Shown here: positions 4,451 through 18,621 of the stretch, one piece after another
Numbering within the stretch: position 1 is the stretch's first letter
Layout: the number at the start of each line of letters is the position of its first letter
DNA from: Gammaproteobacteria bacterium
GTDB lineage: Bacteria; Pseudomonadota; Gammaproteobacteria; Eutrophobiales; Eutrophobiaceae
DNA: 64,000 nucleotides
Assembly (NCBI GenBank): GCA_965243115.1
Contig: CBDEUD010000003.1
Location: 2,392,325 to 2,456,324, forward strand
Reading direction: 5' to 3'
Program-made: the position numbers and the translations under genes
Notes under the pieces: generated by a model
What the model was told of the DNA's origin: nothing
Databases searched by the model: none
Seen by the model: only the letters and a program-made list of their open reading frames with translations

Positions 4451-4594
4451 GCGATTTAGATTATTCAAGTTGAAATGATGTTTAACAGGTTTTGAAGTGA
4501 ATATCTTCTACCAAAGCTGCGTCAATAAAGCTTTGTCAGAGCCATATGTTCGTCACGCGGAATCAGTGCTTGGATTAAACATGAGGGCTTCGGT

Positions 4595-5614: not shown

Positions 5615-5762
5615 AAGTACTCGCCATAGATGAAGCGAATCTTTCATATGACATGCTGCTTTGGGTGGCGCCCGGCAGTACTTTTGGGTCCGGCTGGCAT
5701 ATTCTGATATCAAACATACGCTGAAGGCGTAGAGATGGATTGCACAAACATGGCGCATCATT

Positions 5763-6944
5763 GTGAGGAGCGAGAAAGTGACCATAAATACCCCTGAATT
5801 TACTGACGAGGAGATTCTCGGTATCCGAGAGGGCATTAACGGTATTAAACGGCCCCTTCCGGCGCGTTGTTATCATGACGAAGAGATCTACCGGTTTGAA
5901 GTCGAACATATCCTGAAGAAAAACTGGTTGTGCGTAGGGCGTTGGGACTACGCGCAAAACCCCGGGGATTATTTCACCCGGACGATGTTCGGTGAATCAA
6001 TCGTCATCGTCAGGGACAAGGATCACAAACTTCACGCACTGATCAATGTCTGCCGGCACCGGTTTTGCCAGGTGCTGGAAGATGGCTCTGGTAACGTCAG
6101 CATGCTTGTGTGCCCTTTCCATGGCTGGACCTATAACCTGAATGGGAGCCTGCGTGCTGTCGGTGTCCGGAAAATAGAAGGCATGGATAAGGACAAATGC
6201 CGATTGCCGTCCCTGCGCCTTGAGGAGTGGCAGGGATTTATCTTTATCAATTTCGATCCGGATGCGCAGGCCCTGGGGCCGCAGCTTGAGGCAGTCAACC
6301 CGATTATGGATCTCTACGGCGTCTCGAAATACCGACATCAGCTCACCCAGGATTTCGATTCTCCGTGGAACTGGAAGCTGAATTTTGAAGCAGGCTATGA
6401 AGGCTACCACCATGCCGGGCTGCACAATGAGCGCTTCAACCATATCGAACCGGCATCCGGCTCGCGGCCGCTCTGGTTTGGTGAGATCTGTGGCTCCTAT
6501 GGGGTGCCCTTTGCTGATGATATCCCCCGGGAGGAGACACGTCCCTTTGGTTTACCGCCGCACATGAAAAGTGAAGATGATCCTGTTGAAATGGATACCT
6601 TCATCGCGGTGTATCCGGCTTTCATGATGTATGTGAACAGTTACCAGGTTTCCTACACGCTCGTGCAACACCAGGGCGTGGACATCAATATCGGGTCGAC
6701 GCCTCAGGCATTTGCACCCTGGGCGCTGGAAGCGCCCAATGCCGGGGAAATCATTGACGAGTTCAAGGAATTCACCGTGGAAGTACAAAAAGAGGACACC
6801 CTTGGCTGCACGATGATGCAGAAAGGTCTCAAGTCCCAAAGCGCCCGGGCTGGTTTCATCCATCCGTTGGAAGTGCAGATGAACCATTATCATAACTGGT
6901 ACCTGGATCAGTTCGAAAAGGTCAGGAATGCCGCTAAGGCGTAG
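5763..6944 (+). CDS. Rieske non-heme iron oxygenase alpha subunit (GbcA/Stc2/CntA-like, candidate N- or O-demethylating monooxygenase)
   Basis: Rieske motif CRHRFCQ...CPFHGWTY. ~390 aa alpha-only architecture with N-terminal EEIYRFEVEHILKKNWLCVGRWDY, typical of this subgroup. Confidence 0.75.
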   Translation: MRSEKVTINTPEFTDEEILGIREGINGIKRPLPARCYHDEEIYRFEVEHILKKNWLCVGRWDYAQNPGDYFTRTMFGESIVIVRDKDHKLHALINVCRHRFCQVLEDGSGNVSMLVCPFHGWTYNLNGSLRAVGVRKIEGMDKDKCRLPSLRLEEWQGFIFINFDPDAQALGPQLEAVNPIMDLYGVSKYRHQLTQDFDSPWNWKLNFEAGYEGYHHAGLHNERFNHIEPASGSRPLWFGEICGSYGVPFADDIPREETRPFGLPPHMKSEDDPVEMDTFIAVYPAFMMYVNSYQVSYTLVQHQGVDINIGSTPQAFAPWALEAPNAGEIIDEFKEFTVEVQKEDTLGCTMMQKGLKSQSARAGFIHPLEVQMNHYHNWYLDQFEKVRNAAKA

Positions 6945-6958: not shown

Positions 6959-7507
6959 TCACCCACCTAACCAATCCTGCAGAAACTGCGCCACGCTACG
7001 GTCCACCAGGATACGAAGTCGCGGGGTGTCATCCAGCCTATGGATAATGACCGGCAGGTGCTGCAACCGGGTCAAGGCATAGCGGCCGGAGGGAAAGGCG
7101 CTGTCATGGAGATCGACCGAACACCCTTCCGCCAGTCTGGCCACGGCATCCTCACCGGATATGTCGATGATGCTCCAGGCATCGGTCATATCCGTGACAA
7201 TGGCGGTGGCGTCACCGGCTGCGTCCCGTAATGCGCTTGAAACACTGTCGATATCCGGCGCCGGGTTAACCAGCAACCAGTCATTGGGCGCCAGCCAGTA
7301 TGCTGTCGGCTCGTTGTTTACCTTCTCCTGCGGGCTTTGCGGCAGGGTGCTTCCAATCAGCTTCTCAAACGGGGCCGGATTTATCCCGGCGCGTGGCCGC
7401 ACCTGCAGTCGCAGCTTGCGTGTACCGTCAGGCATGCAATCGATCTCCTTCCGGGTCCCAGGCAACGGGTGTACTGAGCTGTGCTGGATGAACCTGGCCA
7501 TTGTCAT
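6959..7507 (-). CDS. soxG: sarcosine oxidase gamma subunit (SoxG-like)
   Basis: Small ORF immediately downstream of soxA, in the operon position expected for the gamma subunit. The ORF overlaps the soxA 3' end, so the real start is probably the internal MPDGTRK (~7435). Confidence 0.6.
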   Translation of the reverse strand: MTMARFIQHSSVHPLPGTRKEIDCMPDGTRKLRLQVRPRAGINPAPFEKLIGSTLPQSPQEKVNNEPTAYWLAPNDWLLVNPAPDIDSVSSALRDAAGDATAIVTDMTDAWSIIDISGEDAVARLAEGCSVDLHDSAFPSGRYALTRLQHLPVIIHRLDDTPRLRILVDRSVAQFLQDWLGG

Positions 7508-10391
7508 ACACGTTCACCTTCTCACCCAGGCGCTTACTGCCGTCCTGCACCAGGCCGAGACCCACGTAACGTTGCAGGTTGGGACTGTAACAGGCCGAAG
7601 TCACGTAACCCTGGGTAGGTGCGGGTGCGCCCGAATGGTTCACATCGATAACATGCGCACCGGCTGTAAGAACGCCTCCTTCTCCCACAGGTGTAAGACC
7701 CACAAATTCAAAACGTCCGTTACTTACGTTGTGAGGGCGGCTCAGGGAACGCTTGCCCAGGAACTCGCCCTGCTTGCCGTCAGCTACATGGCCCCAGCCG
7801 ACGTCCCTGGGCGTGGTGTTGCCATCGGTATCGCTGCCCACGTGCAGGTATCCCTTCTCGGTCCGCAATATCCCCAGGGTTTCGACGCCGATCGGCACCA
7901 CTTGCAGGTCTTCACCGTGTTGCAGCAAGCGCTCCCACAAGGCCGGCCCCCAATCGGCAGGAACGTTCAGTTCATAGCATAGCTCGCCTGTATAGCTGGC
8001 CCTGAGTACGCGTACGGGTATGTCATCCAGCGTACCGGTGGCGATTGCCATGTGGGGTAACCCGTTGCCGCTGAGGTCAATACCGGACTCCAGCCGTTCA
8101 AGCAACTCTCTCGACCGCGGGCCGGATACGGCGATATTCGCCCACTGGCTGGTAACCGGCGTCAGCAATACGTCCAGGTCCGGCCAGTCGCCCTGCAGCA
8201 GGGCCTCCATCCAGGTGTGGATGCGATTCGCCCCGGCGCTGGTGGTATGCACCAGGTAGTGGTCGTCAGCCAGACGGGCAAAAATACCGTCGTCGATGAT
8301 AACGCCGTTTTCGTTCAGCATGAGACCGTAACGGGCCCGGCCGGTTCCCAGCGAGGTGACGTTGTTGATGTAAACGCGGTCCAGGAATTCAGCGGCGCCC
8401 GGTCCGCGCACTTCGATTTTCCCCAGCGGCGACCCGTCAAAGACGGCTACCAAGGTACGGGCGGCCACGGCCTCCCGGGCAATGGCCTGTTGTTCGCTTT
8501 CACCATTGCGCGGGTAAACCCGGGGACGGCGCCAGGTGCCGTAATCTTCAAATTGCGCGCCCAGTTGTTCGTGGCAGGCAAACAGCGGACTGCGCTGCAC
8601 CGGCGCATAGAAATCGCCCCTGTCACGTCCGGCAATAGCGCCCAGGGTTACCGGCATGTAGAAAGGCCGGAAGGTGGTAGTTCCCACCTGGTCAGGGGTC
8701 CTGTCCGTACGCTCCGCCAGGGCCAGCAGGGCATTCACGTTGCTGGTTTTGCCCTGGTCGACGGACATGCCGGTGGTGGTATAGCGTTTCATATGCTCCA
8801 CTGAGGTATAGTTCTCGGCTACTGCAATATCGATATCCCGCAGGGTCACGTCATACTGGAAATCGATCCACTGGCGGTCCGGGCGTTGTTCACACCCGGC
8901 CAGTTCAATATGCAGGGCGCCAGTGCTCTTCGAGCGCGTCCGGGGACGGACTTGAAGTCCGTCCCCAACGGCAGCGAGACCTGCCACCCGGCCCTGTTCC
9001 AGTGCATCGTCCAGGGACAGGACACCGGCTACCATACCCGCTACGTGCACATGGGGAGGGATCTCGTCCGGCACGAACGCACCCAGCGAGACGTCAAAAC
9101 GCAGCCTGCCGCGGGCCTGGGTGAACAGGTGCACCGCCGGTTGCCAGCCTCCGGACATGGCGACACAGTCACACTGCAACGTTGCCAGGGTTTCCCGGCT
9201 GCCCCGCCTGGCAACGGACACGCTGCGCACGCCTTTATCACCCCGGCAATCCAGCGGGACCGCATTGTGAAACACCGTCATGCCCTGATCACGCAATTCC
9301 CGGGCGCCCCTGCCGGCAAGTGACTTACGCGCATCGATCATGGCAACAACGTCAATACCTGAGTCCATGAGTGCGCCAGCTACGCCGTAGGCACTGTCGT
9401 TGTTGGTCGCAATGACGACGCGCTGACCCGGCGCCACTGCGTAGCGCTTGCAGTACTGTTGTACGGCGCCGGCCAGCATGACGCCCGGCCGGTCGTTGTT
9501 GGCGAAGAGCAGCGGCTGCTCGATGGCGCCGGTGGCGAAGATAATCTCGCGCGCATGGATCTTCCACAACCGCTGTCGCGGTCCTTCGCCCTGTCCTGTC
9601 TCACGCCGGTCGCTCAGCGTCTCGGAAGCGATTACCACGCGGTGGTCGAACCAGGCCGAAGCCGTGGTGTTGGTCAACAGGGTAACGTTGTCCCGCTGTT
9701 GCAAAGTACGGGCGGCGCGTTCCAGCCACACCTTCCCCGGTCTGCCATCGATGTCCTCTTCATTCCAGAGCAGGCTGCCGCCCACGTGGCTGTCCTGTTC
9801 AACGACGATAACCCGCGCCGCTTTCCTGCTCGCAGCCAGCGCCGCGCCCAGGCCGGCAGGGCCGCTGCCCACTACCAGGACATCACAATGCGCGTTATGG
9901 TGAACATAGTGATCGGGGTCATGGCCCACAGGCAGTTTGCCCAGTCCCGACAGGCGGCGGATAACCCCCTCGTACCAGTGCCAGTGCGGCCAGATAAAGG
10001 TCTTGTTGTAAAACCCGGCAGGCCAGAGGAAATGCAGGTAATCCAGACTGCGCCCGATATCAAACTTCACACCGGGCCAGCAGTTTTGACTGCGCGCCAC
10101 CAGTCCATCGTACAGAGGCTGCAACGTTGCCCGTACATTGGGTTCTTCCAGAGCGCCCTGTCCCACCGTCACCAGCGCATTGCACTCTTCAGCGCCGGCA
10201 GCAAGAATACCCCGGGGACGATGATACTTGAAACTGCGCCCCACCACGCGTACGCCGTTGGCCAGTAAGGCCGATGCCAGGGTGTCGCCTTTGAAGCCGC
10301 TGTATTGTTTGCCGTCGAAACTGAATGACAACGGCTTGCCACGGTCGATCCTGCCGCCCGTTTCAAACCGCATGGGTTGGGATGCAGTCAT
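7428..10391 (-). CDS. soxA: heterotetrameric sarcosine oxidase alpha subunit (SoxA-like, with C-terminal GcvT-like folate domain)
   Basis: 987 aa. N-terminus GGRIDRGKPLSFSFDGKQYSGFKGDTLASALLANGVRVVGRSFKYHRPRGI is the classical SoxA signature. Rossmann VLVVGSGPAGLGAALAA. C-terminal aminomethyltransferase-like region. Confidence 0.9.
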   Translation of the reverse strand: MTASQPMRFETGGRIDRGKPLSFSFDGKQYSGFKGDTLASALLANGVRVVGRSFKYHRPRGILAAGAEECNALVTVGQGALEEPNVRATLQPLYDGLVARSQNCWPGVKFDIGRSLDYLHFLWPAGFYNKTFIWPHWHWYEGVIRRLSGLGKLPVGHDPDHYVHHNAHCDVLVVGSGPAGLGAALAASRKAARVIVVEQDSHVGGSLLWNEEDIDGRPGKVWLERAARTLQQRDNVTLLTNTTASAWFDHRVVIASETLSDRRETGQGEGPRQRLWKIHAREIIFATGAIEQPLLFANNDRPGVMLAGAVQQYCKRYAVAPGQRVVIATNNDSAYGVAGALMDSGIDVVAMIDARKSLAGRGARELRDQGMTVFHNAVPLDCRGDKGVRSVSVARRGSRETLATLQCDCVAMSGGWQPAVHLFTQARGRLRFDVSLGAFVPDEIPPHVHVAGMVAGVLSLDDALEQGRVAGLAAVGDGLQVRPRTRSKSTGALHIELAGCEQRPDRQWIDFQYDVTLRDIDIAVAENYTSVEHMKRYTTTGMSVDQGKTSNVNALLALAERTDRTPDQVGTTTFRPFYMPVTLGAIAGRDRGDFYAPVQRSPLFACHEQLGAQFEDYGTWRRPRVYPRNGESEQQAIAREAVAARTLVAVFDGSPLGKIEVRGPGAAEFLDRVYINNVTSLGTGRARYGLMLNENGVIIDDGIFARLADDHYLVHTTSAGANRIHTWMEALLQGDWPDLDVLLTPVTSQWANIAVSGPRSRELLERLESGIDLSGNGLPHMAIATGTLDDIPVRVLRASYTGELCYELNVPADWGPALWERLLQHGEDLQVVPIGVETLGILRTEKGYLHVGSDTDGNTTPRDVGWGHVADGKQGEFLGKRSLSRPHNVSNGRFEFVGLTPVGEGGVLTAGAHVIDVNHSGAPAPTQGYVTSACYSPNLQRYVGLGLVQDGSKRLGEKVNVYDNGQVHPAQLSTPVAWDPEGDRLHA

Positions 10392-10705
10392 ACCGTTTCT
10401 TCCCGGTCCATATCCGGGGCCGCCTTATCGAGACGATACACGGCGAGAATCTCGTGGGTTACCGTATGACGGGCAACATTGAACCACTGCCGGCACCCGT
10501 AACGGTGCTGCCAGCGTTCGAAGTGGACCCCCTTGGGATTATCACGGTAAAACAGGTATTCGGCCCATTCCCGGTCCGACACCTGCTCTGCCGGTTCGGG
10601 CCGGGCTATATGGGCCTGCCCGCCGGAGACAAACTCGTTTTCATCACGTTCACCACAGAAAGGGCAGGAGATCCGGAACATGGCGATCCTTCTAGTGAGC
10701 CACAC
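10388..10705 (-). CDS. soxD: sarcosine oxidase delta subunit (SoxD-like)
   Basis: MFRISCPFCGERDENEFVSGGQAHIARPEP matches the SoxD family. ~97 aa counted from MFRISC. Sits between soxB and soxA. Confidence 0.8.
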   Translation of the reverse strand: MWLTRRIAMFRISCPFCGERDENEFVSGGQAHIARPEPAEQVSDREWAEYLFYRDNPKGVHFERWQHRYGCRQWFNVARHTVTHEILAVYRLDKAAPDMDREETV

Positions 10706-11936
10706 CCGCCGCGGCCGATTCGTCCACCAGGGCGCCGCTTTCGAAACGTTCCAGGGAGAAAGGTTTGATCAGCGCATGGGGCTGGTCCTTGACAATGGTA
10801 GAAGCCATGGTATCGCCGCTCGCCGGGATGGCCTTGTAACCGCCGGTGCCCCAGCCGCAGTTGATATACAGGTTCTGCACCGGCGTCCTGCCCATGATGG
10901 GACTGGTATCGGGCGAGATATCCACGATGCCGGCCCACTGGCGCATGAGCTTTAACCGGCTGAAACGTGGATACAGGGTCAGGAACGCCGCCACGCAGGA
11001 TTCGATGTTATCGTAACTGCCGCGCTGGGCATAGGAATTGTACACGTCGGCGCCAGCGCCCAGGACGATCTCGCCGCGGTCCGACTGGCTCGCATACATG
11101 TGTATGGCGCCGGACACGGTCACCAGATTAAGCGCCGGTTTAATCGGCTCCGATACCATGGCCTGCAGCGCCATGCTGGTGAGCGGCAGGCGGAAACCCG
11201 CCATCTTCGCCAGTACGCTGGTGTGGCCGGCGACGGTGATATGCACTTTTTCCGCGGAAATATCTCCCAGCGAGGTTTGTACCCCGGTAACCATGCCGTG
11301 GCTGATGTTAAAGCCTGTCACGGTACAGTTCTGGATGATATCCACTCCCAGGGCATCGGCGGCGCGGGCATAACCCCAGTTGACCGCATCATGGCGCGAG
11401 ATGCCGCCGCGCCATTGGATAAATCCACCGGCTACGGGAAAGCGCGCATTGATGTCAATGAGCGGTTCAAGTTCTTTGATTTGCTGCGCTGTCAGCATCT
11501 CGGAATCTATACCGTTAAGCTGGATGGCATTGGTCCAGCGCTTCAGCATCTCCATGTCATGATCGCTATGGGCAAGATTCAGCACCCCGCGCTGGCTGAA
11601 CATCACGTTGATATTGAGATCGCGGCTCATGCTTTCGTATAACTTCAGGGAGTGCTCGAAGAACGCGGCGCTCTCGGGATAGAAATAATTGGAACGGGTA
11701 ACCTGGGTATTGCGGCCGCTGTTGCCGCCGCCTATCCAACCGCGTTCCAGCACTGCCACATTAGTAACACCATGCTTTTTTGCCAGGTAATAGGCCGTGG
11801 CAAGACCATGCCCTCCCCCGCCGATAACGACCACGTCATAGGATTTCTTCGGTTCCGGCGAACGCCAGACCGGCTGCCAGCGTTTATGCCCTCTCAGCGC
11901 ATGGTAGAGGATTTTGGCAAAAGAATACTTCTCCAC
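10692..11936 (-). CDS. soxB: sarcosine oxidase beta subunit (SoxB-like FAD flavoprotein)
   Basis: VVVIGGGGHGLATAYYLAKKHGVTNVAVLERGWIGGGNSGRNT is the dinucleotide-binding motif of SoxB/DAO-family proteins. 414 aa. Confidence 0.9.
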   Translation of the reverse strand: MEKYSFAKILYHALRGHKRWQPVWRSPEPKKSYDVVVIGGGGHGLATAYYLAKKHGVTNVAVLERGWIGGGNSGRNTQVTRSNYFYPESAAFFEHSLKLYESMSRDLNINVMFSQRGVLNLAHSDHDMEMLKRWTNAIQLNGIDSEMLTAQQIKELEPLIDINARFPVAGGFIQWRGGISRHDAVNWGYARAADALGVDIIQNCTVTGFNISHGMVTGVQTSLGDISAEKVHITVAGHTSVLAKMAGFRLPLTSMALQAMVSEPIKPALNLVTVSGAIHMYASQSDRGEIVLGAGADVYNSYAQRGSYDNIESCVAAFLTLYPRFSRLKLMRQWAGIVDISPDTSPIMGRTPVQNLYINCGWGTGGYKAIPASGDTMASTIVKDQPHALIKPFSLERFESGALVDESAAAGVAH

Positions 11937-11980
11937 GACTGGTACCTGATGGTCTTAGAATAATATGTTACGGAATCCGG

Positions 11981-13126
11981 TTATTCCATCTCGTTGACAA
12001 CGATATTCTCCCCCGTGTTGCGCAACAACTCAATCCACCTGTCAACGTGTTCCCTGTCCGAGGGAACAGGCGTTATGCCGGTTTCGACTTCGCCGTTCAG
12101 TATGGCCTCGACTACCAGAGAAACCGGGACTGAAACGAGTCTTGCCATGGCAGACCCCCGTTCATCACCGGTGCTGTCCAGGAGATATTGCCGGGCCCAT
12201 ACCTGCCTGCCCGTTTTGTCCCTGGCGCTTAACTCCACACTCAGTACGACCCGGTCCGGTTCCCCTTCGGCATACTGGTGTTGCCGCCATAACTCTTCAC
12301 TCAACCCGGCAAGGCGTTGCTCACCGGCTGCCCCGGTTGCGTTCTCCACCGTGCGGAAAATATCCTCCCAGGCCTTTGCCCAACCCTCAAGCCGCAGTGT
12401 GCCGCGTACGAAGTGTTCAATCGTCCAGTTACTTTCAATCCCGTATTGCCTGATGAACGGCAACGAATCCCGGTTGGGGAAAGCCTCAAAACGTTCTCCG
12501 TTGACCAGGAAAGCATCGATTTCCCTGTAAGGCGTCCCGGTGTTGCGTTCCTCACCCCGGGCAATCCAGCGGGCCGGTGTATTGAGTGCCTTCAGCACAC
12601 CCAGCGGAGACCAGGAAAACTTGTAGGTGAATTCATCCGCCTCAAGCGGAAAACCGCCGCAGTAAGAATGAAATGAGATGATGTTCCCAGGGTCAAATAC
12701 ACCGCTACGCCGGTAGCTGTCCAGCAGTGCATGGGCGAACAGGTGGTCCAGTCCCGGGTCAAGGCCGCACTCATTGACGAAGCATAATTGTTTTGCCCTG
12801 GCTTGCGCATCAAGCATTGCCATCTCTTCAGAAATGTAACTCGAAGTAACAAAGTGCGCACCGGTTTCCAGGCAAAGTCCTGCCGCACGCAGGTGCATGG
12901 GTGCGGGCAACATGGATACCACTACATCACCCGGCTTGACTCTCGATGCCAGCAGCGTCCAATCAAATTCCCTGGCAGCGGTATCAGCGGAGCGTATGCC
13001 TGCAAACGCGGTCTGTGCTTTCGCCAGGGTCCTGTTCCATACGGTGATCGGATAATCCGACAGCGCCAACCTGCGTATACCCGGCACAGATGACAGGCCT
13101 GCTCCAAGCCAGTGAACGTGGTGCAT
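11981..13126 (-). CDS. saccharopine dehydrogenase family oxidoreductase, LYS9-like (saccharopine reductase type)
   Basis: Blocks VTSSYIS, NECGLDPGLDHL, SYCGGFP, YKFSWSPLGVL, FPNRDS and RGTLRLEGW align with yeast Lys9 blocks VTSSYIS, MNEIGLDPGIDHL, SYCGGLP, YKFSWSSRGVL, YPNRDS and RGTLRYQGF (from recall). Confidence 0.8.
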   Translation of the reverse strand: MHHVHWLGAGLSSVPGIRRLALSDYPITVWNRTLAKAQTAFAGIRSADTAAREFDWTLLASRVKPGDVVVSMLPAPMHLRAAGLCLETGAHFVTSSYISEEMAMLDAQARAKQLCFVNECGLDPGLDHLFAHALLDSYRRSGVFDPGNIISFHSYCGGFPLEADEFTYKFSWSPLGVLKALNTPARWIARGEERNTGTPYREIDAFLVNGERFEAFPNRDSLPFIRQYGIESNWTIEHFVRGTLRLEGWAKAWEDIFRTVENATGAAGEQRLAGLSEELWRQHQYAEGEPDRVVLSVELSARDKTGRQVWARQYLLDSTGDERGSAMARLVSVPVSLVVEAILNGEVETGITPVPSDREHVDRWIELLRNTGENIVVNEME

Positions 13127-13141
13127 GTTTCTATCCCATCC

Positions 13142-14200
13142 CTAACCTGTTTCTGTTAATCGGGCTTGCGCCTTTTTATCTTCATAGAACTCCAGCGCCC
13201 GTTGCCAGGTCTTGCCGTCTGGTAATTCCAGCAATGCGCCCAACAGTTGCGCGGAAAAATCTTCACTGCTTTCCTTTGGCAACATCGAAGGCAAATGGTC
13301 TATGGCTATCAGGTCCAGGACGGGTTTGTCTCTGAGGCGTAGCGCCGGCCTTACGAATGTTGTGCAGTCAGTATAAACCGGTAGCGGGTTATAGACACTG
13401 TACGGGTCGCAACTGACGTCGACTACACTGGTGAGCAAGCGCTCTTTCTCCAGCAGGTCATTGGTTATAAACGGTCGGGTGTCTGATTGAAGCAGTACGC
13501 AGTTTATCAGCATATCGTGCTCAAGTATTTCAACAAACGGGCCTCCTTCTACCGTTTCTTCCAGGTCCCACAAGGTAGTTTCCAAACCCAGGCTGTGGCA
13601 GAAGTCCGTAGCGCCGCGACCGGAGCGCCCTTTGGCTCCGACGATTATGACCCGAGGATACATGCCGGACTTCTTCAGCAAATCAGATGCTTCTACCAGC
13701 AGTTGATTCTTGTCGGGATAACTGCGGACAGGTTGCAGCTTCCCAGGTTGCGCCAGCCGGTTCATTACACCCAGGGCGGCACCTGCAAAACCCGCCCAGT
13801 AACCGAATGCGGCGATGCGCCTGCCGTTTTCGTCCAGCAGGTATTCCAGGTCGAGCAACTGCCCGCCATCTTCGGCAAACCTGCACAGCAAAGCCGTCCA
13901 GCCCGTTTGCTGCTTGTAGGCGTGGCCGAAATAGATATGCCTGTGACACAGTGCGGGTAATGGCTCCGGCAATTCCTTGAGGCCGAGAACATAACAGTCT
14001 AGCGGGGCATCCGGCCAGGAAGCGGCCGGAACGATACGGCAACCCGCCTGCCGGTATTGCCGGGTATCGAACACCCGGTTACCGCACTCTTCAACGGACA
14101 CGCTAAAGCCTGCTGCAATCAGTTCCCCCGCCGCGGCAGGGGCCAGCGCAACCCTGCGTTCGAACGGCTTGGATTCGGCGCGCAGCCATAAATGGGGCAT
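13142..14200 (-). CDS. saccharopine dehydrogenase (L-lysine-forming) / LYS1-like, AlaDH-PNT family
   Basis: HLWLRAESKPFERRVALAPAAAGELIAAGFSVSVEE aligns with yeast Lys1 HLRAETKPLEARAALTP..LIAKGF.IYVED. Further matches: LGLKELPE, DLEYLLDENGRRIAAFGYWAGFAGAALGV, IIVGAKGRSGRGA, IDHLPSMLPKESSE. Confidence 0.8.
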   Translation of the reverse strand: MPHLWLRAESKPFERRVALAPAAAGELIAAGFSVSVEECGNRVFDTRQYRQAGCRIVPAASWPDAPLDCYVLGLKELPEPLPALCHRHIYFGHAYKQQTGWTALLCRFAEDGGQLLDLEYLLDENGRRIAAFGYWAGFAGAALGVMNRLAQPGKLQPVRSYPDKNQLLVEASDLLKKSGMYPRVIIVGAKGRSGRGATDFCHSLGLETTLWDLEETVEGGPFVEILEHDMLINCVLLQSDTRPFITNDLLEKERLLTSVVDVSCDPYSVYNPLPVYTDCTTFVRPALRLRDKPVLDLIAIDHLPSMLPKESSEDFSAQLLGALLELPDGKTWQRALEFYEDKKAQARLTETG

Positions 14201-14261: not shown

Positions 14262-14558
14262 CTAATTTGCTGCCTGTACGTGTAATTTAACTCCCAGGGC
14301 CTTGATGATCTTTATCACTGTCGTAAAGGACGGATTGCCCTCCGATGACAACGCCTTGTATAACCCTTGCCGTGTCATCCCGGTGCTTTCTGCCAACCTG
14401 CCCATGCCTTTTGCACGGGCAATATTATTCAACGCGGTACGGATCAGGGCGCCATCACCGGTGTCCTCTTCCATGCATGCATCCAGGTACAAGGCCATGT
14501 CTTCTTCAGTATGAAGATAATCAGTAACATCATACGGGGTCAGTTTTACTTCAGCCAT
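14262..14558 (-). CDS. addiction-module antidote protein (HigA/XRE-like, TIGR02684-type antitoxin)
   Basis: 98 aa. MAEVKLTPYDVTDYLHTEEDMALYLDACMEE...ALNNIARAKGMGRLAESTGMTRQGLYKALSSEGNPSFTTVIKIIKALG is the typical sequence of this antidote family. It overlaps the stop of the upstream toxin ORF. Confidence 0.8.
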   Translation of the reverse strand: MAEVKLTPYDVTDYLHTEEDMALYLDACMEEDTGDGALIRTALNNIARAKGMGRLAESTGMTRQGLYKALSSEGNPSFTTVIKIIKALGVKLHVQAAN

Positions 14559-14737
14559 CTACGTACCTCCCCGGCTATTTCAAGAGCCTGTTCAATAACA
14601 CCTTTACCTACCGCTCGGCAATCACCCAGGTTACCTTGTTGAACATTTTCCAGACGCGCCGCGATTTTCGCTTTTGCTTGCCTGTCCCGCAATCCTCTGA
14701 GCCATTTGCCAAAGACTTCCGTTGTCTGAACCAACAT
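14546..14737 (-). CDS. addiction-module killer protein (RelE/ParE-superfamily, TIGR02683-like), apparently internally deleted
   Basis: N-terminus MLVQTTEVFGKWLRGLRDRQAKAKIAARLENVQQGNLGDCRAVGKGV matches the family, but the protein is only 63 aa. The conserved SELRIDYGPGYRVYF...GGDKSTQ core is missing. Confidence 0.55.
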   Translation of the reverse strand: MLVQTTEVFGKWLRGLRDRQAKAKIAARLENVQQGNLGDCRAVGKGVIEQALEIAGEVRRWLK

Positions 14738-14747
14738 GGCGATATAG

Positions 14748-14763
14748 TAAACTATAGTTTACA
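14748..14763. promoter_or_regulatory. perfect 16-bp palindrome GTAAACTATAGTTTAC, candidate TA-module operator
   Basis: Self-complementary 16-mer 11 bp upstream of the toxin start codon. Autoregulatory operators at this position are typical for type II TA operons. Confidence 0.5.
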
Positions 14764-14814
14764 CTAATGTCAATGCTTTTATGCTGGCAACATGTTTCCC
14801 TGGCACATTCGCAA

Positions 14815-16122
14815 TCAATTCGTCGGCCAACTGAACACCCTCACCGCGCCTTCGGAAACGTCGAGTTCGCACTTCACCATCTCTCCTTTGCGGATGATGG
14901 CCGGCAGCGCCGCACCGTCCCGTTCCAGCAGGGAAATGTCTTCCAGGGGATTGCCGTCCACAACCAGCAGGTCGGCAAACGCCCCTTCCCTGATACAACC
15001 GAGCCTGTCGGGTTCCATCAGGATCTCGGCGTTGACTGCCGTGGCCTGGTGAAGGATCTCAAATGGCGTGAAGACTTGTTTCCTGATAGCAAATTCCGTG
15101 CATTGCCGTACATGTTGCGCGCCCAGCAGGTCCGTACCCAGGCCCATTTTCACACCGGCAGCGCGCATGGTTTCCAGACCATCCATAGCCTGGGCGTAAA
15201 CAAGCTTGACTTTTTCCTGGCCAGCTGGCGGCAGACCATACTTGGCGCCTTCTTCATGAAGTGCGAACAGTACTGCAAAAGTGGGAACGACGTAGGCATT
15301 CCGGCCGGCCACATAGTCCGCGGTTTCCTTGTCAATCAGGGTCGCATGCTCGATACAGCGCACCCCGAACTCCACACAACGCCTGACCGCTTCGGTCGGG
15401 TGGCAATGGGCTGACACGTAGGTTTCCTGACGTGCGCATTCATCCACCGCAGCGCGAATCTCTTCTTCGGTAAACTGTGTGTGGTGCAGTGGATCATTGG
15501 GACTGACTACACCACCAGACCCCATTATCTTTATGCAATGGGAGCCCTTTCTCAATTCGTCGCGTACTGCGCGCCGCATTTCATAAGGATCATCGACAAT
15601 GCGCGTCAGTTTGGTCGAATAGTTGCCACAGGTACAAAGTTGATCCGATGGATCCACTTCCCAGCCCGGGCGCATATCGCCGTGCCCCCCGGTTTGCGAC
15701 ATGATTTTTCCTGCGTAATAAAAACGCGGGGCACGCACCAGTCCATGGTCGATAGCGCGGGAGATTCCGACGTCACCGCCCCCAATATCGCGTATCGTTG
15801 TAAATCCCCGAGCCAGGGTCGCATTGAGAAACACATTGGCATACTGGGCAATATACGTCTCCGGCATCCTGGATAGCGCCGTCGTATCCAGGGTGGGGAT
15901 ACATACATGGATATGATTATCTATCAGACCGGGTATCACGGTGCGACCCCCGGCATCGACCACGTGATCGCTCCGGCTGCCTGTCTCGCTCGTGGAGATT
16001 TCTTTGATCTCGCCATCCGCCAGCAAGATGTTGGAACGGTCCGACAGTTCCGGGCTATGTCCGTCAAATATATGCGCATTTTTTATAAGTATCGATTCAC
16101 TGGTCATCTCTGTCATTCTCAT
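14815..16122 (-). CDS. amidohydrolase-family metal-dependent hydrolase
   Basis: IPGLIDNHIHV metal-binding HxH motif near the N-terminus, 435 aa, with further His/Asp positions. The start overlaps the upstream gene by 4 bp (ATGA). Confidence 0.8.
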   Translation of the reverse strand: MRMTEMTSESILIKNAHIFDGHSPELSDRSNILLADGEIKEISTSETGSRSDHVVDAGGRTVIPGLIDNHIHVCIPTLDTTALSRMPETYIAQYANVFLNATLARGFTTIRDIGGGDVGISRAIDHGLVRAPRFYYAGKIMSQTGGHGDMRPGWEVDPSDQLCTCGNYSTKLTRIVDDPYEMRRAVRDELRKGSHCIKIMGSGGVVSPNDPLHHTQFTEEEIRAAVDECARQETYVSAHCHPTEAVRRCVEFGVRCIEHATLIDKETADYVAGRNAYVVPTFAVLFALHEEGAKYGLPPAGQEKVKLVYAQAMDGLETMRAAGVKMGLGTDLLGAQHVRQCTEFAIRKQVFTPFEILHQATAVNAEILMEPDRLGCIREGAFADLLVVDGNPLEDISLLERDGAALPAIIRKGEMVKCELDVSEGAVRVFSWPTN

Positions 16123-16979
16123 ATTTCGGTCAGTTTGAAATCATAGACTTCTTCAGCACTGATTGCAGCACCCTCACCCAGTTCTGTGCCCAGGTCGGCC
16201 AGGCCTGCCTGTAAACTCTCCGGATCGACATATCCATTCGGCGTATAACAGGGCAAGATCAATTCATAGGTTTTTACCGCATCCTCATGGGAGATATTCA
16301 TTGCATCCTGAAGAATGGAATGGATATCAGCCGGTGAATCGCGGATGACGGCCAAGCTCCGCCGGTAGACGCCGACCAGGCGTTCCACCAAACCGGGATC
16401 TTCCTCCGCGATCTTTTCAGTAGTGGCGATACCGCTGGTCACAAACCTTATCTCGTCTCCCACTAGGCTAAGGATATTCAATCCCAGCCGTTGTACCGTC
16501 ACCGGCGAGACAGCGGAACTGATCAGCGCCGCATCCACAGCGCCTGCGCGCAGCAGGCCGAGACGGATGGCATCATCCCGGGTCGGTTTCAACTCGACAT
16601 CCGTATCGGGATCGAGGCCATGGTTGCGCACGGCGATGCGGTTGAACCAGTATGGCGGGGCAAGCGGCGGGTAGGTCGCGATACGCTTACCGGCAAGCTG
16701 TTCGACGCCGTCCGTCCCTGCAGCGCCATATAACCAGAACATCGGTTTGGTAACGGCAGCCAGATAAACCCTGAAAGAAACGTTTTGAGAAAAAGCCGCG
16801 GCGCCGCAGGCAACCTGGAAATAATCCGCAACCGGAAGCTTGTCATCCGGCGTAAACGTGGTATCGACCAGTCTTACGTCCAGGCCTGCAGATGCATAAA
16901 AACCGCCGCGCCGGGCGACAAAATGGCACAGCAGTTCATGAATATCAAATGCCTTGATACCGCATTCGATGGTTTTCAT
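16119..16979 (-). CDS. NMT1/THI5-like or SsuA-like substrate-binding-fold protein (no signal peptide)
   Basis: 286 aa with a periplasmic-binding-protein type 2-like sequence character. Assigned by general resemblance only. Confidence 0.4.
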   Translation of the reverse strand: MKTIECGIKAFDIHELLCHFVARRGGFYASAGLDVRLVDTTFTPDDKLPVADYFQVACGAAAFSQNVSFRVYLAAVTKPMFWLYGAAGTDGVEQLAGKRIATYPPLAPPYWFNRIAVRNHGLDPDTDVELKPTRDDAIRLGLLRAGAVDAALISSAVSPVTVQRLGLNILSLVGDEIRFVTSGIATTEKIAEEDPGLVERLVGVYRRSLAVIRDSPADIHSILQDAMNISHEDAVKTYELILPCYTPNGYVDPESLQAGLADLGTELGEGAAISAEEVYDFKLTEI

Positions 16980-16991: not shown

Positions 16992-17225
16992 TCATTCAAG
17001 AGGCAGGATGTTGTGCGAGTAGTCTTCCGGTTCCAGGGTTGTGAGGTTTGCCCGGGACTGGCGCATCCCGTAAGTTGTCACGGTTTCAGGTTCACAATCG
17101 CGCCAGGTGAAAGAACAATCCAGGCAATGGTACACGGTCCAGACAACCGTGTCGCCATGCAGCCCCTGGCGTTCCACCCGGCAACGGTCGGCTTCTGCAG
17201 CACAGCGGGGACATTGGATATTCAT
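16992..17225 (-). CDS. BsdD/VdcD-like small zinc-ribbon protein (phenolic acid decarboxylase subunit D paralog)
   Basis: CPRC...C..CSFTWRDCEPE matches B. subtilis BsdD (CPRC...CQTCFFTWRSCEPE). ~45% identical to the ORF at 39363-39596 in this same window. Confidence 0.7.
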   Translation of the reverse strand: MNIQCPRCAAEADRCRVERQGLHGDTVVWTVYHCLDCSFTWRDCEPETVTTYGMRQSRANLTTLEPEDYSHNILPLE

Positions 17226-17313: not shown

Positions 17314-18621
17314 ATGAAACAACTGATTATCCCGGTTATCCTGCTTTTCCTGGCGCAGCAGGTACACGCTGACGATCCGCCGTTATATCCCTATCCCGCT
17401 CCGGAAGATATTACCCTGGAAGACATCGTTCCCGCAGCGATGGACAATCTCAGCCGGCCGGGATACGTTCCCGGAATGAAGCCGGGGGAAAAGGTCTTGA
17501 TCGTTTCCGATCGTTCCGTGGATCCGCTGGCTGCCGAAGCCTTCTACGTTGCCGCGTGGCGCCTGGGCGCAAGCCAGGTGGATACGATTATGCTGCAAGG
17601 CCGCCTGGACGTGACCGACCCTACTGAACTGGTCCTCGAGATCTTCGAGAAAGATCCGTGGCCGCAATGGGTATGGGACACCGCCGCGGGTTATGACAGG
17701 GTATTGCCGTTGTCCTTTATCAACCCGGTCAACCTGATGCCGGCCGTCAACGTTCCCGGCGTCGGCTGGAAGAACAAATGGGCCCACGATACCGATACCG
17801 TGCTTCACATGCTGTGGAATACGCACCAGCAACGCCAGCGCCTCGCCGCCAACAGGGACTACCCCGATGAACTTGTCTGGGCGCTGATCCGCAAGGGTTA
17901 CGACACCATGCGCAGCGGTAAAAAATTTCACCTGACCGATCCCAACGGCACGGACCTGCGGTGGACGCTGGATGAGCAGATGTGGGAAGGTTATAACGAG
18001 TTATGGGGTGATATCGTCAACAACCACTCGCCGCGAATCCACCTCAGTGACAACCCGGAAATGCAAGGCGTTTTCGTATCGGACCACCTGCATTCCGGCC
18101 GTATCCCTACAATTGAACTGCACATTGATAAAGGCAAGGTCACAGAGGTAAAAGGCGGCGGCAGCATGGGTGATTACCTGCGCACCGCGTTTGAAAAATA
18201 CAAGGACGTCCAGTACCCGCACTTCCCCGGCCCGGGGGTTAACTGGGTGGAGTACCTGGTCTGGGGTTTTTACCCGGTCCCCGGTTACGAACCGCTGCCG
18301 GACATCCCGGAGATGGCCTGGTCCGGCAAGTGGTGGACCTACAACATCGACCTGAAAGCGGGCTTGGTCCATATTGCCGTCGGCACGACGGCCGGCGGAT
18401 TTACCGCGGAATTCACCAGGGAGCACGGCTATCCCGTGCATCACAAGGACTTCGTGATCTACCGGCCGACGTTGACGGTGGACGGGGAAGTAATCATCGA
18501 GCGCGGCCACCTCACGGCGCTGGATGACCCGGAGATCCGCGCCATCGCCGCCAAATACGGCGATCCGGACACGCTGCTGAAACAACCGTGGAGCCCGGAT
18601 CAGGACCCGCGTTTCAGGTAA
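17314..18621 (+). CDS. exported hypothetical protein (signal peptide), family not recognised
   Basis: N-terminal signal MKQLIIPVILLFLAQQVHA. 435 aa. No diagnostic motif that I can name with confidence. Confidence 0.45.
   Translation: MKQLIIPVILLFLAQQVHADDPPLYPYPAPEDITLEDIVPAAMDNLSRPGYVPGMKPGEKVLIVSDRSVDPLAAEAFYVAAWRLGASQVDTIMLQGRLDVTDPTELVLEIFEKDPWPQWVWDTAAGYDRVLPLSFINPVNLMPAVNVPGVGWKNKWAHDTDTVLHMLWNTHQQRQRLAANRDYPDELVWALIRKGYDTMRSGKKFHLTDPNGTDLRWTLDEQMWEGYNELWGDIVNNHSPRIHLSDNPEMQGVFVSDHLHSGRIPTIELHIDKGKVTEVKGGGSMGDYLRTAFEKYKDVQYPHFPGPGVNWVEYLVWGFYPVPGYEPLPDIPEMAWSGKWWTYNIDLKAGLVHIAVGTTAGGFTAEFTREHGYPVHHKDFVIYRPTLTVDGEVIIERGHLTALDDPEIRAIAAKYGDPDTLLKQPWSPDQDPRFR

What the first reader, a model, noticed from the sequence alone, without database searches (positions are those of the whole stretch)
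6959..14200. Six-gene operon placing LYS1-like and LYS9-like saccharopine dehydrogenases in front of a heterotetrameric soxBDAG-type oxidase
Minus-strand gene order is LYS1-like (14200-13142), a 16-bp gap, LYS9-like (13126-11981), a 45-bp gap, then soxB, soxD, soxA and soxG with overlapping stops and starts. These are four successive ORFs of the heterotetrameric sarcosine oxidase type on one strand with small or negative gaps, which implies co-transcription. Heterotetrameric sarcosine-oxidase-family enzymes oxidise N-alkylated amino acids at the C-N bond. LYS1/LYS9-family enzymes make or break the secondary-amine (opine-type) linkage of saccharopine, and the LYS1 family also contains N5-carboxyethyl-ornithine synthase. 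The coupling therefore suggests a dedicated pathway for an N-carboxyalkyl amino acid such as saccharopine, an opine or a lysine-derived secondary amine, rather than canonical sarcosine catabolism. I am not aware of this arrangement being a described pathway.
Basis: partly seen in the sequence, partly recalled or inferred. Interest (0 to 1): 0.7.

Follow-up and report, generated by a model that had tools for sequence, protein, structure and literature searches.

The report
Lysine-breakdown genes beside sarcosine oxidase genes
A marine gammaproteobacterium carries the known two-gene lysine-degrading saccharopine pathway directly in front of a four-gene sarcosine-oxidase-type enzyme, but related genomes keep either set without the other, so this looks like two ordinary catabolic modules sitting side by side rather than a new pathway.

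Summary
Six same-strand ORFs (LYS1-like, LYS9-like, soxB, soxD, soxA, soxG) lie at the stated coordinates, with 15-bp and 44-bp gaps followed by overlaps.

- The LYS1/LYS9 pair keeps the yeast Lys1 catalytic residues. It occurs as a stand-alone pair, without sox, in most of about 80 other genomes (Colwellia, Pseudoalteromonas, many Roseobacters). This matches the known bacterial lkr/sdh saccharopine pathway.
- The sox genes encode a complete four-subunit enzyme with an intact folate (GCV_T) domain, which argues for an N-methyl substrate, not an opine.
- The β subunit is 55-59% identical to proven or context-typical sarcosine oxidases and 48-52% to N-methylglutamate dehydrogenases. It carries sarcosine-oxidase-type motifs.
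- It falls in a third, uncharacterised marine clade. A 70%-identical member of that clade sits beside a dimethylglycine-dehydrogenase-like gene.
- LYS–sox adjacency is confined to one narrow lineage (six genomes). In two of them an opposite-strand HTH gene, in one also a transposase gene, separates the halves.
- Sister genomes carry LYS without sox, or sox without LYS, behind the same amidohydrolase/NMT1 pair.

Verdict: known modules juxtaposed and probably co-transcribed here. The arrangement is undescribed but of low interest.

The parts
13142..14200 (-). LYS1-like saccharopine dehydrogenase (L-lysine-forming type), i.e. the bacterial lysine-ketoglutarate reductase (lkr).
   Evidence: Pfam AlaDh_PNT_N, 9.2e-22. 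It scores 291 bits against yeast Lys1 structures 3ugk/2q99. The residues aligned with yeast R18, K77, E78, H96, E122 and R131 are invariant across 14 homologues (residue roles from my own knowledge of the yeast enzyme). It is about 50-52% identical to the Ruegeria/Roseobacter and Colwellia pairs.
11981..13126 (-). LYS9-like saccharopine dehydrogenase (L-glutamate-forming type; sdh).
   Evidence: Pfam Sacchrp_dh_NADP and Sacchrp_dh_C, 1.4e-42. The best solved relatives are Magnaporthe saccharopine reductase 1e5l (139 bits), yeast Lys9 2axq, and the human AASS SDH domain. It lies immediately after LYS1 in most of the roughly 80 loci examined.
10692..11936 (-). soxB, the β (catalytic flavoprotein) subunit of a heterotetrameric sarcosine-oxidase-family enzyme.
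   Evidence: TIGR01373, 637 bits against a cut-off of 529. It scores 489 bits against Corynebacterium U-96 and S. maltophilia TSOX β. Motifs RSNY, RHD, IHMY and GWGTGGYK are of the SOX type, not the MGD type. It falls in a third marine clade.
10388..10705 (-). soxD, the δ subunit.
   Evidence: Pfam SoxD 1.3e-38; TIGR01374, 128 bits against a cut-off of 116.5.
7428..10391 (-). soxA, the α subunit, with Fer2_4, a nucleotide-binding domain, the A3 domain and the folate-binding GCV_T and GCV_T_C domains.
   Evidence: TIGR01372, 1236 bits against a cut-off of 1164. Pfam domains. The conserved Asp in FDGSPLGK is shown. It is 41-44% identical to both SOX- and MGD-context α subunits and 49% to L112.
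6959..7507 (-). soxG, the γ subunit. The probable true start is the ATG at 7435.
   Evidence: Pfam SoxG 4.5e-11. TIGR01375 scores 80.9 bits, below its cut-off of 143.95. The ATGCCTGA overlap with the soxA stop is shown.
14262..14558 (-). HigA-like antitoxin (dnstrm_HI1420 family), inserted between the amidohydrolase gene and LYS1.
   Evidence: Pfam PF21716 3.5e-27; TIGR02684, 110 bits. Toxin-antitoxin, HTH or IS genes occupy the module junctions in relatives too.
14546..14737 (-). A 63-codon ORF directly upstream of, and overlapping, the antitoxin gene. I read it as the remnant of the cognate toxin. It is preceded by a sigma-70-like site at 14773-14744.
   Evidence: Translation. The reading as an internally deleted HI1419-type toxin rests on my own recollection of that family and was not tested against a profile. 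The promoter-like site TTGACA-18-TACTAT matches 10 of 12 positions.
14815..16122 (-). M38/COG1228 amidohydrolase (prolidase / N-acyl-imino-acid or N-acyl-lysine acylase type).
   Evidence: It scores 345 bits against 3mkv (Sgx9260b) and 316 bits against 3feq/3n2c (Sgx9260c prolidase). According to PMC11511702, the family also includes L-pipecolic acid acylase and ε-lysine acylases. It is 86-92% conserved in L084, L085, L086 and L088.
16119..16979 (-). NMT1/THI5-like protein without a signal peptide. Its stop overlaps the amidohydrolase start by 4 nt.
   Evidence: Pfam NMT1 3e-9. Sequence. It has no relative among solved structures. It is paired with the amidohydrolase in L084, L085, L086, L088 and L089.
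16992..17225 (-). A 77-aa Zn-ribbon ORF (CPRC…CLDC) upstream of the NMT1-like gene.
   Evidence: It is conserved at the same place in L084 (84%) and L085 (78%). It is 44% identical to the ORF at 39372-39596 beside UbiD and 43% to the L086 gene carrying PF26358 EcdD_BsdD_detox.
17314..18621 (+). Divergently oriented secreted protein of unknown function. Its homologues in relatives carry only a faint NicX hit.
   Evidence: The signal-peptide-like N-terminus is visible. No Pfam, NCBIfam or PDB hit. It is 92-93% conserved in L084 and L085.

Best explanation
The locus is a composite of separable, already known nitrogen-compound catabolic modules on one strand.

- Module ii (LYS1-like + LYS9-like) is the bacterial saccharopine pathway. 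The LYS1-type enzyme condenses L-lysine with 2-oxoglutarate to saccharopine. The LYS9-type enzyme then cleaves saccharopine to L-glutamate and 2-aminoadipate semialdehyde. The semialdehyde must be handled by a dehydrogenase encoded elsewhere.
- Module iii (soxBDAG) is a heterotetrameric sarcosine-oxidase-family enzyme. It oxidises the N-methyl group of a small N-methyl amino acid, most likely sarcosine, and passes the one-carbon unit to tetrahydrofolate on the α subunit.
- Module i (Zn-ribbon ORF, NMT1-like protein, M38 amidohydrolase) lies upstream. It probably deacylates an N-acyl amino or imino acid, or a dipeptide.

In this genome the short gaps make co-transcription of LYS1–LYS9–soxBDAG likely. 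The juxtaposition is inherited within one narrow gammaproteobacterial lineage and is not required for either module to function.

Shown: gene content, family membership, conserved catalytic residues and motifs, and the distribution of arrangements.
Inferred: substrates, direction of flux, co-transcription.
For: 1. LYS pair.
- LYS1-like scores 291 bits against yeast Lys1, with catalytic and carboxylate-binding residues invariant.
- LYS9-like is closest to saccharopine reductases.
- The pair stands alone, with no sox within 10 kb, in most of about 80 genomes, including many Ruegeria/Roseobacter and Colwellia.
- R. pomeroyi lkr (SPO3307) is recorded as experimentally verified for saccharopine-pathway lysine catabolism (PMC4334477).

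2. Sox genes.
- All four subunits are present and three pass the NCBIfam cut-offs.
- The β subunit is 55.6% identical over the aligned columns to the solved Corynebacterium TSOX β subunit (489 bits). It is 55.8-58.9% to sox clusters flanked by glyA/sdaA/purU, and 48-52% to clusters flanked by mgsABC and gmaS.
- The motifs are SOX-type (GWGTGG-Y/F-K, IHMY), not MGD-type (GWCYGGFK, GHFY).
- The folate-domain Asp is conserved.
- The nearest context-informative relative (P0192, 70%) lies beside a DAO+FAO_M+GCV_T dimethylglycine-dehydrogenase-like gene and near MTHFR and a DgcA-like flavoprotein.

3. Separability.
- L086 has NMT1–amidohydrolase–LYS1–LYS9 without sox.
- L088 has NMT1–amidohydrolase–unrelated gene–soxBDAG without LYS.
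- L087 has soxBDAG (β 90% identical) with neither.
- L101 has LYS1 without LYS9 or sox.
- L001 and L102 carry an opposite-strand HTH gene, and L001 also an rve transposase gene, between LYS9 and soxB.

4. No specialisation. No LYS-clade-specific change occurs at otherwise conserved β positions, apart from I37V and A382V.
Against: - LYS–sox adjacency persists in six genomes. It does so across two different upstream contexts (NMT1/amidohydrolase or hydantoinase A/B) and despite repeated toxin-antitoxin, HTH or IS insertions. That could reflect selection rather than descent alone.
- The sox cluster belongs to a third clade that is neither the canonical SOX clade nor the MGD clade. Its α subunit is equidistant from both (41-44%) and only 49% identical to the dimethylglycine-context relative. 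Sarcosine specificity is therefore inferred, not shown.
- None of the usual sox companions was found in the window: no glyA, purU, folD, sdaA or GlxA-type regulator among the ORFs scanned.
- The same M38 amidohydrolase/NMT1 pair is found next to either module. That leaves room for a shared precursor.
Confidence: 0.62

Rival explanations
1. One integrated pathway for a modified lysine. The M38 amidohydrolase releases an N-methylated (or otherwise modified) lysine. The Sox enzyme removes the N-methyl group as methylene-tetrahydrofolate, for example N6-methyl-L-lysine to L-lysine. LYS1/LYS9 then degrade the lysine.
For: - The folate apparatus is retained, which fits an N-methyl substrate.
- The M38 family includes ε-lysine acylases and L-pipecolic acid acylase (PMC11511702).
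- Amidohydrolase, LYS and sox share one strand with tight spacing in the window, L084 and L085.
- The sox clade is biochemically uncharacterised.
- No canonical sox companions are present in the window.
Against: - The β-subunit motifs are the same as in the relative that has a dimethylglycine-dehydrogenase neighbour.
- There are no clade-specific substitutions at conserved sites.
- L086 and L088 each keep one half only.
- L004, L001 and L102 lack the amidohydrolase/NMT1 pair upstream.
- A lysine side chain is far larger than the hydrogen side chain of sarcosine, and nothing in the sequence suggests an enlarged pocket. That last point is inference; no structure was examined.
Confidence: 0.1
2. 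The sox genes encode an N-methylglutamate dehydrogenase (mgdABCD) mis-named as sarcosine oxidase. The link to LYS9 would be glutamate or N-alkyl-glutamate chemistry, since saccharopine is itself an N-alkylated glutamate.
For: - TSOX and NMGDH are similar and often confused by annotation (PMC13236597).
- The window β subunit shares the MGD residue at 4 of 14 signature columns, and the α subunit at 3 of 12.
- The α subunit is as close to the MGD-context sequences as to the SOX-context ones.
Against: - The β subunit groups with the SOX side, not with the tight MGD clade, whose members are 72-74% identical to one another.
- The MGD-specific motifs GWCYGGFK and GHFY are absent.
- No gmaS or mgsABC lies nearby, unlike L105, L107 and L110.
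Confidence: 0.06
3. The Sox enzyme oxidises the secondary amine of saccharopine, of another opine, or of L-pipecolate, so that all six genes serve one lysine or opine pathway converging on 2-aminoadipate semialdehyde.
For: - Monomeric sarcosine oxidases and mammalian PIPOX also oxidise L-pipecolate or L-proline. The PIPOX point is from my own knowledge; cyclic imino acids as minor substrates of the Bacillus enzyme are reported in PMC12582975 (abstract).
- The adjacency is conserved in six genomes.
Against: - These substrates yield no one-carbon unit, yet the folate domain, SoxD and SoxG are all intact.
- Known opine oxidases are two-subunit enzymes without these parts (from my own knowledge).
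- LYS9 already performs the saccharopine cleavage.
- The LYS pair is self-sufficient elsewhere.
- No aminoadipate-semialdehyde dehydrogenase or opine transporter was found in the cluster.
Confidence: 0.04

Closest known systems
Bacterial saccharopine pathway genes lkr/sdh of Ruegeria (Silicibacter) pomeroyi DSS-3 (lkr = SPO3307)
   Same: Two separate adjacent genes, a LYS1-type followed by a LYS9-type. The window proteins are about 50-52% identical to the pairs in many Ruegeria and other Roseobacter genomes. The catalytic residues of the LYS1 family are conserved.
   Different: Here, and in a few close relatives, the pair lies between an M38 amidohydrolase (or hydantoinase genes) and soxBDAG. 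The window clade is a distinct subgroup: at least 63% identical within itself and at most 57% to all others. Activity and lysine induction are untested here.
Heterotetrameric sarcosine oxidase (TSOX, SoxBDAG) of Corynebacterium sp. U-96 and Stenotrophomonas maltophilia (PDB 1vrq/3ad7, 2gag)
   Same: Same four subunits in the same gene order. The β subunit scores 487-489 bits against both. SOX-type motifs are conserved around the residues I recall as the flavin-linked histidine and the carboxylate-binding Arg and Lys. The α subunit has the folate-binding GCV_T domain.
   Different: It belongs to a separate marine gammaproteobacterial clade. The α subunit is only 41-44% identical to context-typical sox α subunits. 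soxG scores below the NCBIfam cut-off. No glyA, purU, folD or GlxA-type regulator is adjacent.
N-methylglutamate dehydrogenase (mgdABCD) of the N-methylglutamate pathway
   Same: Homologous four-subunit architecture acting on an N-methyl amino acid and coupled to folate (PMC13236597). Overall identity is similar (β 48-52%, α 42-44%).
   Different: The MGD-clade motifs and the gmaS/mgsABC neighbourhood are absent.
Opine oxidases OoxAB/NoxAB of Agrobacterium Ti plasmids
   Same: Flavoproteins related to SoxB and to the N-terminal part of SoxA that oxidise a secondary amine (from my own knowledge).
   Different: As I recall them, those enzymes have two subunits and no folate domain, δ or γ subunit, and lie among opine transport genes. 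Here all four subunits and the folate domain are present and no opine transporter is nearby. No Oox/Nox sequence was compared here.
M38/COG1228 amidohydrolases Sgx9260b and Sgx9260c (PDB 3mkv, 3feq/3n2c)
   Same: The upstream amidohydrolase scores 345 and 316 bits against them. They hydrolyse Xaa-Pro dipeptides and N-acyl-prolines (PMC11511702).
   Different: The substrate here is unknown. The gene is translationally coupled to a cytoplasmic NMT1-like protein and preceded by a small Zn-ribbon ORF, a combination I did not find described.

Membership tests
Heterotetrameric sarcosine oxidase (SoxBDAG/TSOX) | Four genes for the β, δ, α and γ subunits in one cluster | tested here: met
   ORFs are in the order soxB-soxD-soxA-soxG with overlaps. 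Pfam and NCBIfam hits for all four.
Heterotetrameric sarcosine oxidase (SoxBDAG/TSOX) | Scores above the curated family cut-offs | tested here: inconclusive
   soxB 637/529, soxA 1236/1164 and soxD 128/116.5 pass. soxG 80.9/143.95 fails. These are 'subfamily' models that also cover MGD-type enzymes.
Heterotetrameric sarcosine oxidase (SoxBDAG/TSOX) | β-subunit active-site motifs (flavin-linked His region, carboxylate-binding Arg and Lys) of the sarcosine-oxidase type | tested here: met
   RSNY, RHD, IHMY and GWGTGGYK align with the Corynebacterium TSOX and sox-context sequences. The residue roles are recalled from the TSOX/MSOX literature and were not verified here.
Heterotetrameric sarcosine oxidase (SoxBDAG/TSOX) | α subunit with a folate-binding aminomethyltransferase domain | tested here: met
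   GCV_T 3.3e-67 and GCV_T_C 1.1e-10. The conserved Asp in FDGSPLGK is shown.
Heterotetrameric sarcosine oxidase (SoxBDAG/TSOX) | Groups phylogenetically with enzymes of proven sarcosine oxidase activity | tested here: inconclusive
   Neighbour-joining trees place it in a third clade. For β that clade is sister to the SOX clade; for α it lies outside both SOX and MGD. Only one proven enzyme sequence was available.
Heterotetrameric sarcosine oxidase (SoxBDAG/TSOX) | Usual genomic companions (glyA, purU/folD, sdaA, GlxA-type regulator, dimethylglycine-oxidising genes) | tested here: not met
   None was found among the window ORFs scanned. They are present in L103, L104 and L108. A dimethylglycine-dehydrogenase-like gene lies next to the 70% relative.
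Heterotetrameric sarcosine oxidase (SoxBDAG/TSOX) | Oxidises sarcosine to glycine with formation of methylene-tetrahydrofolate | not testable with these tools
   This requires an enzyme assay.
N-methylglutamate dehydrogenase (mgdABCD) | Membership of the tight MGD clade and its motifs | tested here: not met
   The β subunit is 48-52% identical to MGD-context sequences, which are 72-74% identical to one another. GWCYGGFK and GHFY are absent.
N-methylglutamate dehydrogenase (mgdABCD) | Neighbourhood with gmaS (type III glutamine-synthetase-like) and mgsABC | tested here: not met
   Absent from the window. Present in L105, L107 and L110.
Bacterial saccharopine pathway (lkr + sdh) | LYS1-type enzyme with the catalytic Lys/His pair and the two carboxylate-binding Arg residues | tested here: met
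   The alignment to yeast Lys1 and the invariant columns R16, K75, E76, H93, E119 and R128. The residue roles come from my knowledge of the yeast enzyme.
Bacterial saccharopine pathway (lkr + sdh) | Adjacent LYS9-type saccharopine dehydrogenase gene | tested here: met
   Sacchrp_dh_NADP and Sacchrp_dh_C. Best solved relatives are saccharopine reductases. The pair is conserved in most of about 80 loci.
Bacterial saccharopine pathway (lkr + sdh) | Homologous to the verified Ruegeria genes | tested here: inconclusive
   About 50-52% identical to the pairs of many Ruegeria species with the same gene order. The R. pomeroyi sequence itself was not available, and the primary paper (Neshich et al. 2013) is not held.
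Bacterial saccharopine pathway (lkr + sdh) | Lysine-dependent activity and induction | not testable with these tools
   This requires experiments.
Opine oxidase (OoxAB/NoxAB) or a dedicated opine catabolic operon | Two-subunit oxidase without a folate domain, set among opine transport genes | tested here: not met
   Four subunits with a full GCV_T domain. No ABC opine transporter is in the cluster. The definition of the family comes from my own knowledge.

The most novel reading that the evidence does not exclude
The uncharacterised third clade of SoxBDAG enzymes found here has, in this lineage, become part of an eight-gene pathway for a modified lysine. The M38 amidohydrolase (with its NMT1-like and Zn-ribbon partners) releases an N-methylated lysine derivative. 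The Sox enzyme demethylates it to lysine through tetrahydrofolate. The LYS1/LYS9 enzymes then degrade the lysine. That would be a new bacterial route for methyl-lysine or acyl-lysine catabolism.
Probability: 0.08. Interest if true: 0.6.

Novelty: new member of a known kind. Interest (0 to 1): 0.25.

Why it matters
On the ordinary reading the finding matters little. It adds a lineage-specific gene order to two well-understood catabolic modules, and it cautions against inferring a pathway from adjacency alone.

Two side results have modest value.
- Sarcosine-oxidase-like clusters of marine Gammaproteobacteria form a clade distinct from both canonical sarcosine oxidases and N-methylglutamate dehydrogenases. 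Their substrate has apparently not been tested, although homologues about 70% identical are abundant in marine metagenome data.
- The M38 amidohydrolase/NMT1-like/Zn-ribbon trio is a conserved unit of unknown function that sits next to either module.

If the integrated reading were right, it would define a new route for modified-lysine catabolism in the sea.

Tried and rejected
- Horizontal transfer of sox. GC and GC3 of the sox genes (0.58-0.62 and 0.66-0.71) match backbone genes such as the TonB receptor and the NicX-like gene, so there is no sign of recent import. The low-GC stretch lies below about 6 kb, outside the cluster.
- Promoter and terminator scan. Counts did not exceed shuffled controls, and nothing lies in the LYS9–soxB or LYS1–LYS9 gaps, so the scan cannot decide co-transcription.
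- Alignment upstream of soxB. The 44-bp spacer is conserved only among LYS-linked genomes, with no shared upstream element in L087 or L088.
- A shared 'gene X' upstream of soxB. The 284-aa gene of L088 and the 283-aa gene of L112 are unrelated to each other and absent from the window.
- Metagenome scan with the amidohydrolase alignment. It returned only one close locus, L089.
- Exact look-ups of the window's own LYS1 protein and of P0131 found nothing on record.
- Rfam and tRNA scans of the whole window found nothing.
- The primary paper on bacterial lkr/sdh (PMC3834855) is not held.
- Creatinine / N-methylhydantoin idea. Hydantoinase A/B genes flank the LYS genes in L001, L004, L086 and L102. 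They are absent from the window and change sides between genomes, so I treated them as another shuffled module, not as part of this unit.
- The Rieske oxygenase convergent on soxG is conserved only in L085. L084 and L004 have a luciferase-like monooxygenase there instead.


Full report
**Observation**

- LYS1-like 13142-14200
- LYS9-like 11981-13126
- soxB 10692-11936 (GTG start)
- soxD 10388-10705
- soxA 7428-10391
- soxG 6959-7507

The gaps are 15 and 44 bp. The sox genes overlap one another. The likely soxG start is the ATG at 7435, which overlaps the soxA stop as ATGCCTGA.

Pfam and NCBIfam confirm every assignment. soxB, soxA and soxD pass their curated cut-offs; soxG does not (80.9 against 143.95). 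A simple promoter and terminator scan found nothing in the two short gaps, but the scan overall did not exceed shuffled controls. Co-transcription is therefore plausible and untested.

**The unit is larger than six genes**

Further genes lie on the same strand upstream of LYS1:
- A HigA-like antitoxin at 14262-14558.
- A 63-codon ORF at 14546-14737 that I read as a truncated toxin gene. It lies behind a good sigma-70-like site at 14773-14744.
- An amidohydrolase at 14815-16122.
- An NMT1/THI5-like protein without a signal peptide at 16119-16979. Its stop overlaps the amidohydrolase start by 4 nt.
- A 77-aa Zn-ribbon ORF at 16992-17225. It is conserved in relatives and paralogous to an EcdD/BsdD-like ORF beside UbiD at 39372-39596.

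The amidohydrolase scores 345 and 316 bits against the solved M38/COG1228 enzymes Sgx9260b and Sgx9260c. Those enzymes hydrolyse Xaa-Pro dipeptides and N-acyl-prolines. According to PMC11511702 the same family contains L-pipecolic acid acylase and the ε-lysine acylases.

**The LYS pair**

- The LYS1-like protein scores 291 bits against yeast Lys1 structures and only about 52 bits against the human AASS reductase domain.
- The positions aligned with yeast R18, K77, E78, H96, E122 and R131 are invariant in an alignment of 14 homologues spanning 53-100% identity. The residue roles come from my own knowledge.
- The LYS9-like protein is closest to fungal saccharopine reductases and the human AASS SDH domain.

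A scan of one genome per species returned 80 loci. In most of them a LYS9 homologue follows LYS1 directly, and no sox gene lies within 10 kb. These include Colwellia, Thalassotalea, Pseudoalteromonas and many Ruegeria, Roseovarius, Phaeobacter and other Roseobacter genomes. This is the bacterial lkr/sdh saccharopine pathway. R. pomeroyi lkr (SPO3307) is listed as experimentally supported in the updated genome annotation (PMC4334477). The primary paper was not available.

**The sox genes**

A recent paper stresses that sarcosine oxidase (soxBDAG) and N-methylglutamate dehydrogenase (mgdABCD) are similar and often confused (PMC13236597). I therefore built context-defined references from annotated plasmids:
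- Clusters next to mgsABC and gmaS: Aminobacter aminovorans, Rhizobium leguminosarum, Paracoccus sp. MA.
- Clusters next to glyA, sdaA or purU: Aminobacter sp. SR38, Alisedimentitalea, Vibrio pelagius.
- The solved Corynebacterium U-96 β subunit.

Neighbour-joining trees give three groups: a tight MGD clade, a looser SOX clade, and a third clade of marine gammaproteobacterial sequences that contains the window. The identities of the window proteins are:

| Subunit | To SOX-type sequences | To MGD-context sequences | To the third-clade relative P0192 / L112 |
|---|---|---|---|
| β | 55.6-58.9% | 48-52% | 70% (P0192) |
| α | 41-44% | 42-44% | 49% (L112) |

In the motif regions the window agrees with the SOX type and is essentially the same as P0192. 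It has GWGTGGYK and IHMY, whereas the MGD clade has GWCYGGFK and GHFY. The folate-domain Asp is kept, in FDGSPLGK.

P0192 occurs on many contigs. There its cluster is followed by a DAO+FAO_M+GCV_T protein (dimethylglycine-dehydrogenase-like) and lies near MTHFR and a DgcA-like flavoprotein, which is a sarcosine context.

Only two columns separate the LYS-linked β subunits from all other SOX and third-clade sequences, both conservative: I37V and A382V. I conclude that the enzyme most likely oxidises sarcosine or another small N-methyl amino acid. Its clade has no biochemically tested member that I could find.

**Distribution of the arrangement**

| Arrangement | Genomes or loci |
|---|---|
| LYS1–LYS9–soxBDAG behind NMT1/amidohydrolase | window, L084, L085 |
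| LYS1–LYS9–soxBDAG behind hydantoinase A/B genes | L004, L001, L102 |
| NMT1–amidohydrolase–LYS1–LYS9, no sox | L086 |
| NMT1–amidohydrolase–unrelated gene–soxBDAG, no LYS | L088 |
| soxBDAG (β 90% identical) with neither | L087 |
| LYS1 without LYS9 or sox | L101 |
| Antitoxin gene directly after LYS1 | L089 |

- In the six LYS–sox genomes the β subunits are 95-97% identical to one another, so this is one narrow lineage.
- In L001 and L102 an opposite-strand HTH gene lies between LYS9 and soxB. L001 also has an rve transposase gene there and an IS66 transposase gene after soxG.
- LYS1 is the least conserved gene of the block (69-83% identity, against 86-92% for the amidohydrolase).
- The picture is a plastic locus in which catabolic modules are shuffled and mobile genes collect at the junctions. 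Either module can persist without the other.

**Mechanism proposed**

- Module ii converts lysine and 2-oxoglutarate to saccharopine, and then to glutamate and 2-aminoadipate semialdehyde.
- Module iii converts sarcosine (or a similar small N-methyl amino acid) to glycine and methylene-tetrahydrofolate.
- Module i deacylates an unknown N-acyl amino or imino acid, or a dipeptide.
- The wider window also carries a POT peptide transporter, an ACE-like M2 peptidase, DUF885 and TonB-dependent receptors. That fits a general theme of peptide and amino-compound scavenging.

Gene content, residues and distribution are shown. Substrates, direction of flux and co-transcription are inferred.

**Rivals**

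- A single pathway for a methylated or acylated lysine remains possible (about 0.1). The folate apparatus fits N-demethylation, the amidohydrolase family has lysine- and pipecolate-related members, and the sox clade is uncharacterised.
- An N-methylglutamate dehydrogenase identity is unlikely given the motifs and the neighbourhood (about 0.06).
Those substrates give no one-carbon unit, yet the folate domain, δ and γ subunits are all intact. LYS9 already performs the saccharopine cleavage.

**Novelty**

Two full-text searches found no paper mentioning both saccharopine and sarcosine oxidase genes in an operon context. The arrangement therefore appears undescribed, but each part belongs to a known family. 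Interest is low (0.25). The modest residual interest lies in the untested third clade of Sox-like enzymes and in the conserved amidohydrolase/NMT1-like/Zn-ribbon trio.

Noticed in passing
window 14546-14773 (minus strand): An intact HigA-like antitoxin gene follows a 63-codon ORF that looks like an internally deleted toxin gene, behind a strong sigma-70-like site. In relatives, other toxin-antitoxin, HTH or IS genes sit at the junctions between the same catabolic modules (L001, L084, L089, L101, L102).
   Followed up: partly
window 16992-17225 (minus strand) and 39372-39596 (minus strand): Two paralogous ORFs of about 75 aa encode Zn-ribbon proteins (44% identical) of the EcdD/BsdD type. One lies beside UbiD, as expected. 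The other lies upstream of the NMT1-like/amidohydrolase pair and is conserved there in L084 and L085, although gene callers missed it.
   Followed up: partly
window 4595-5614 (+), within the low-GC stretch of about 1-6000: A 339-aa protein matches the reductive dehalogenase family (TIGR02486, 109 bits, below the cut-off of 160) and has a 4Fe-4S dicluster domain. It sits in a segment of 45-49% GC, against about 58-60% elsewhere, next to a VanA-like Rieske oxygenase. This may be an acquired island.
   Followed up: no
window 10692-11936 and 7428-10391; loci L087, L088, L112-L115: Sox-like clusters of marine Gammaproteobacteria form a clade distinct from both context-typical sarcosine oxidases and N-methylglutamate dehydrogenases. 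Homologues about 70% identical are very numerous in metagenome data, and I found no biochemically tested member.
   Followed up: partly
window 18635-27163 (minus strand): Two TPR-sulfotransferase fusion proteins, a TPR-2OG-Fe(II) oxygenase fusion and a methyltransferase surround a 988-aa TonB-dependent receptor. A similar TPR-sulfotransferase and receptor pairing appears next to the sox cluster of the distant relative L112.
   Followed up: no
window 31280-34820 (+): A POT-family peptide transporter is followed by an angiotensin-converting-enzyme-like M2 peptidase (Pfam 1.1e-217), an uncommon enzyme in bacteria. DUF885 lies nearby at 28146-29948.
   Followed up: no
L004 18345-20612, L084 18471-20738, L087 15640-17907: A 755-aa fusion of a pyridine-nucleotide-disulphide oxidoreductase domain with a SelD-like AIRS domain is a recurrent neighbour downstream of this sox type in relatives. 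In the window it is replaced by the Rieske oxygenase and the low-GC segment.
   Followed up: no
L101 10001-11047; L086, L088: LYS1 is the fastest-evolving gene of the block (69-83% identity, against 86-92% for the amidohydrolase). In L101 it survives without LYS9, which hints at relaxed constraint or decay of the lysine module in part of the lineage.
   Followed up: partly
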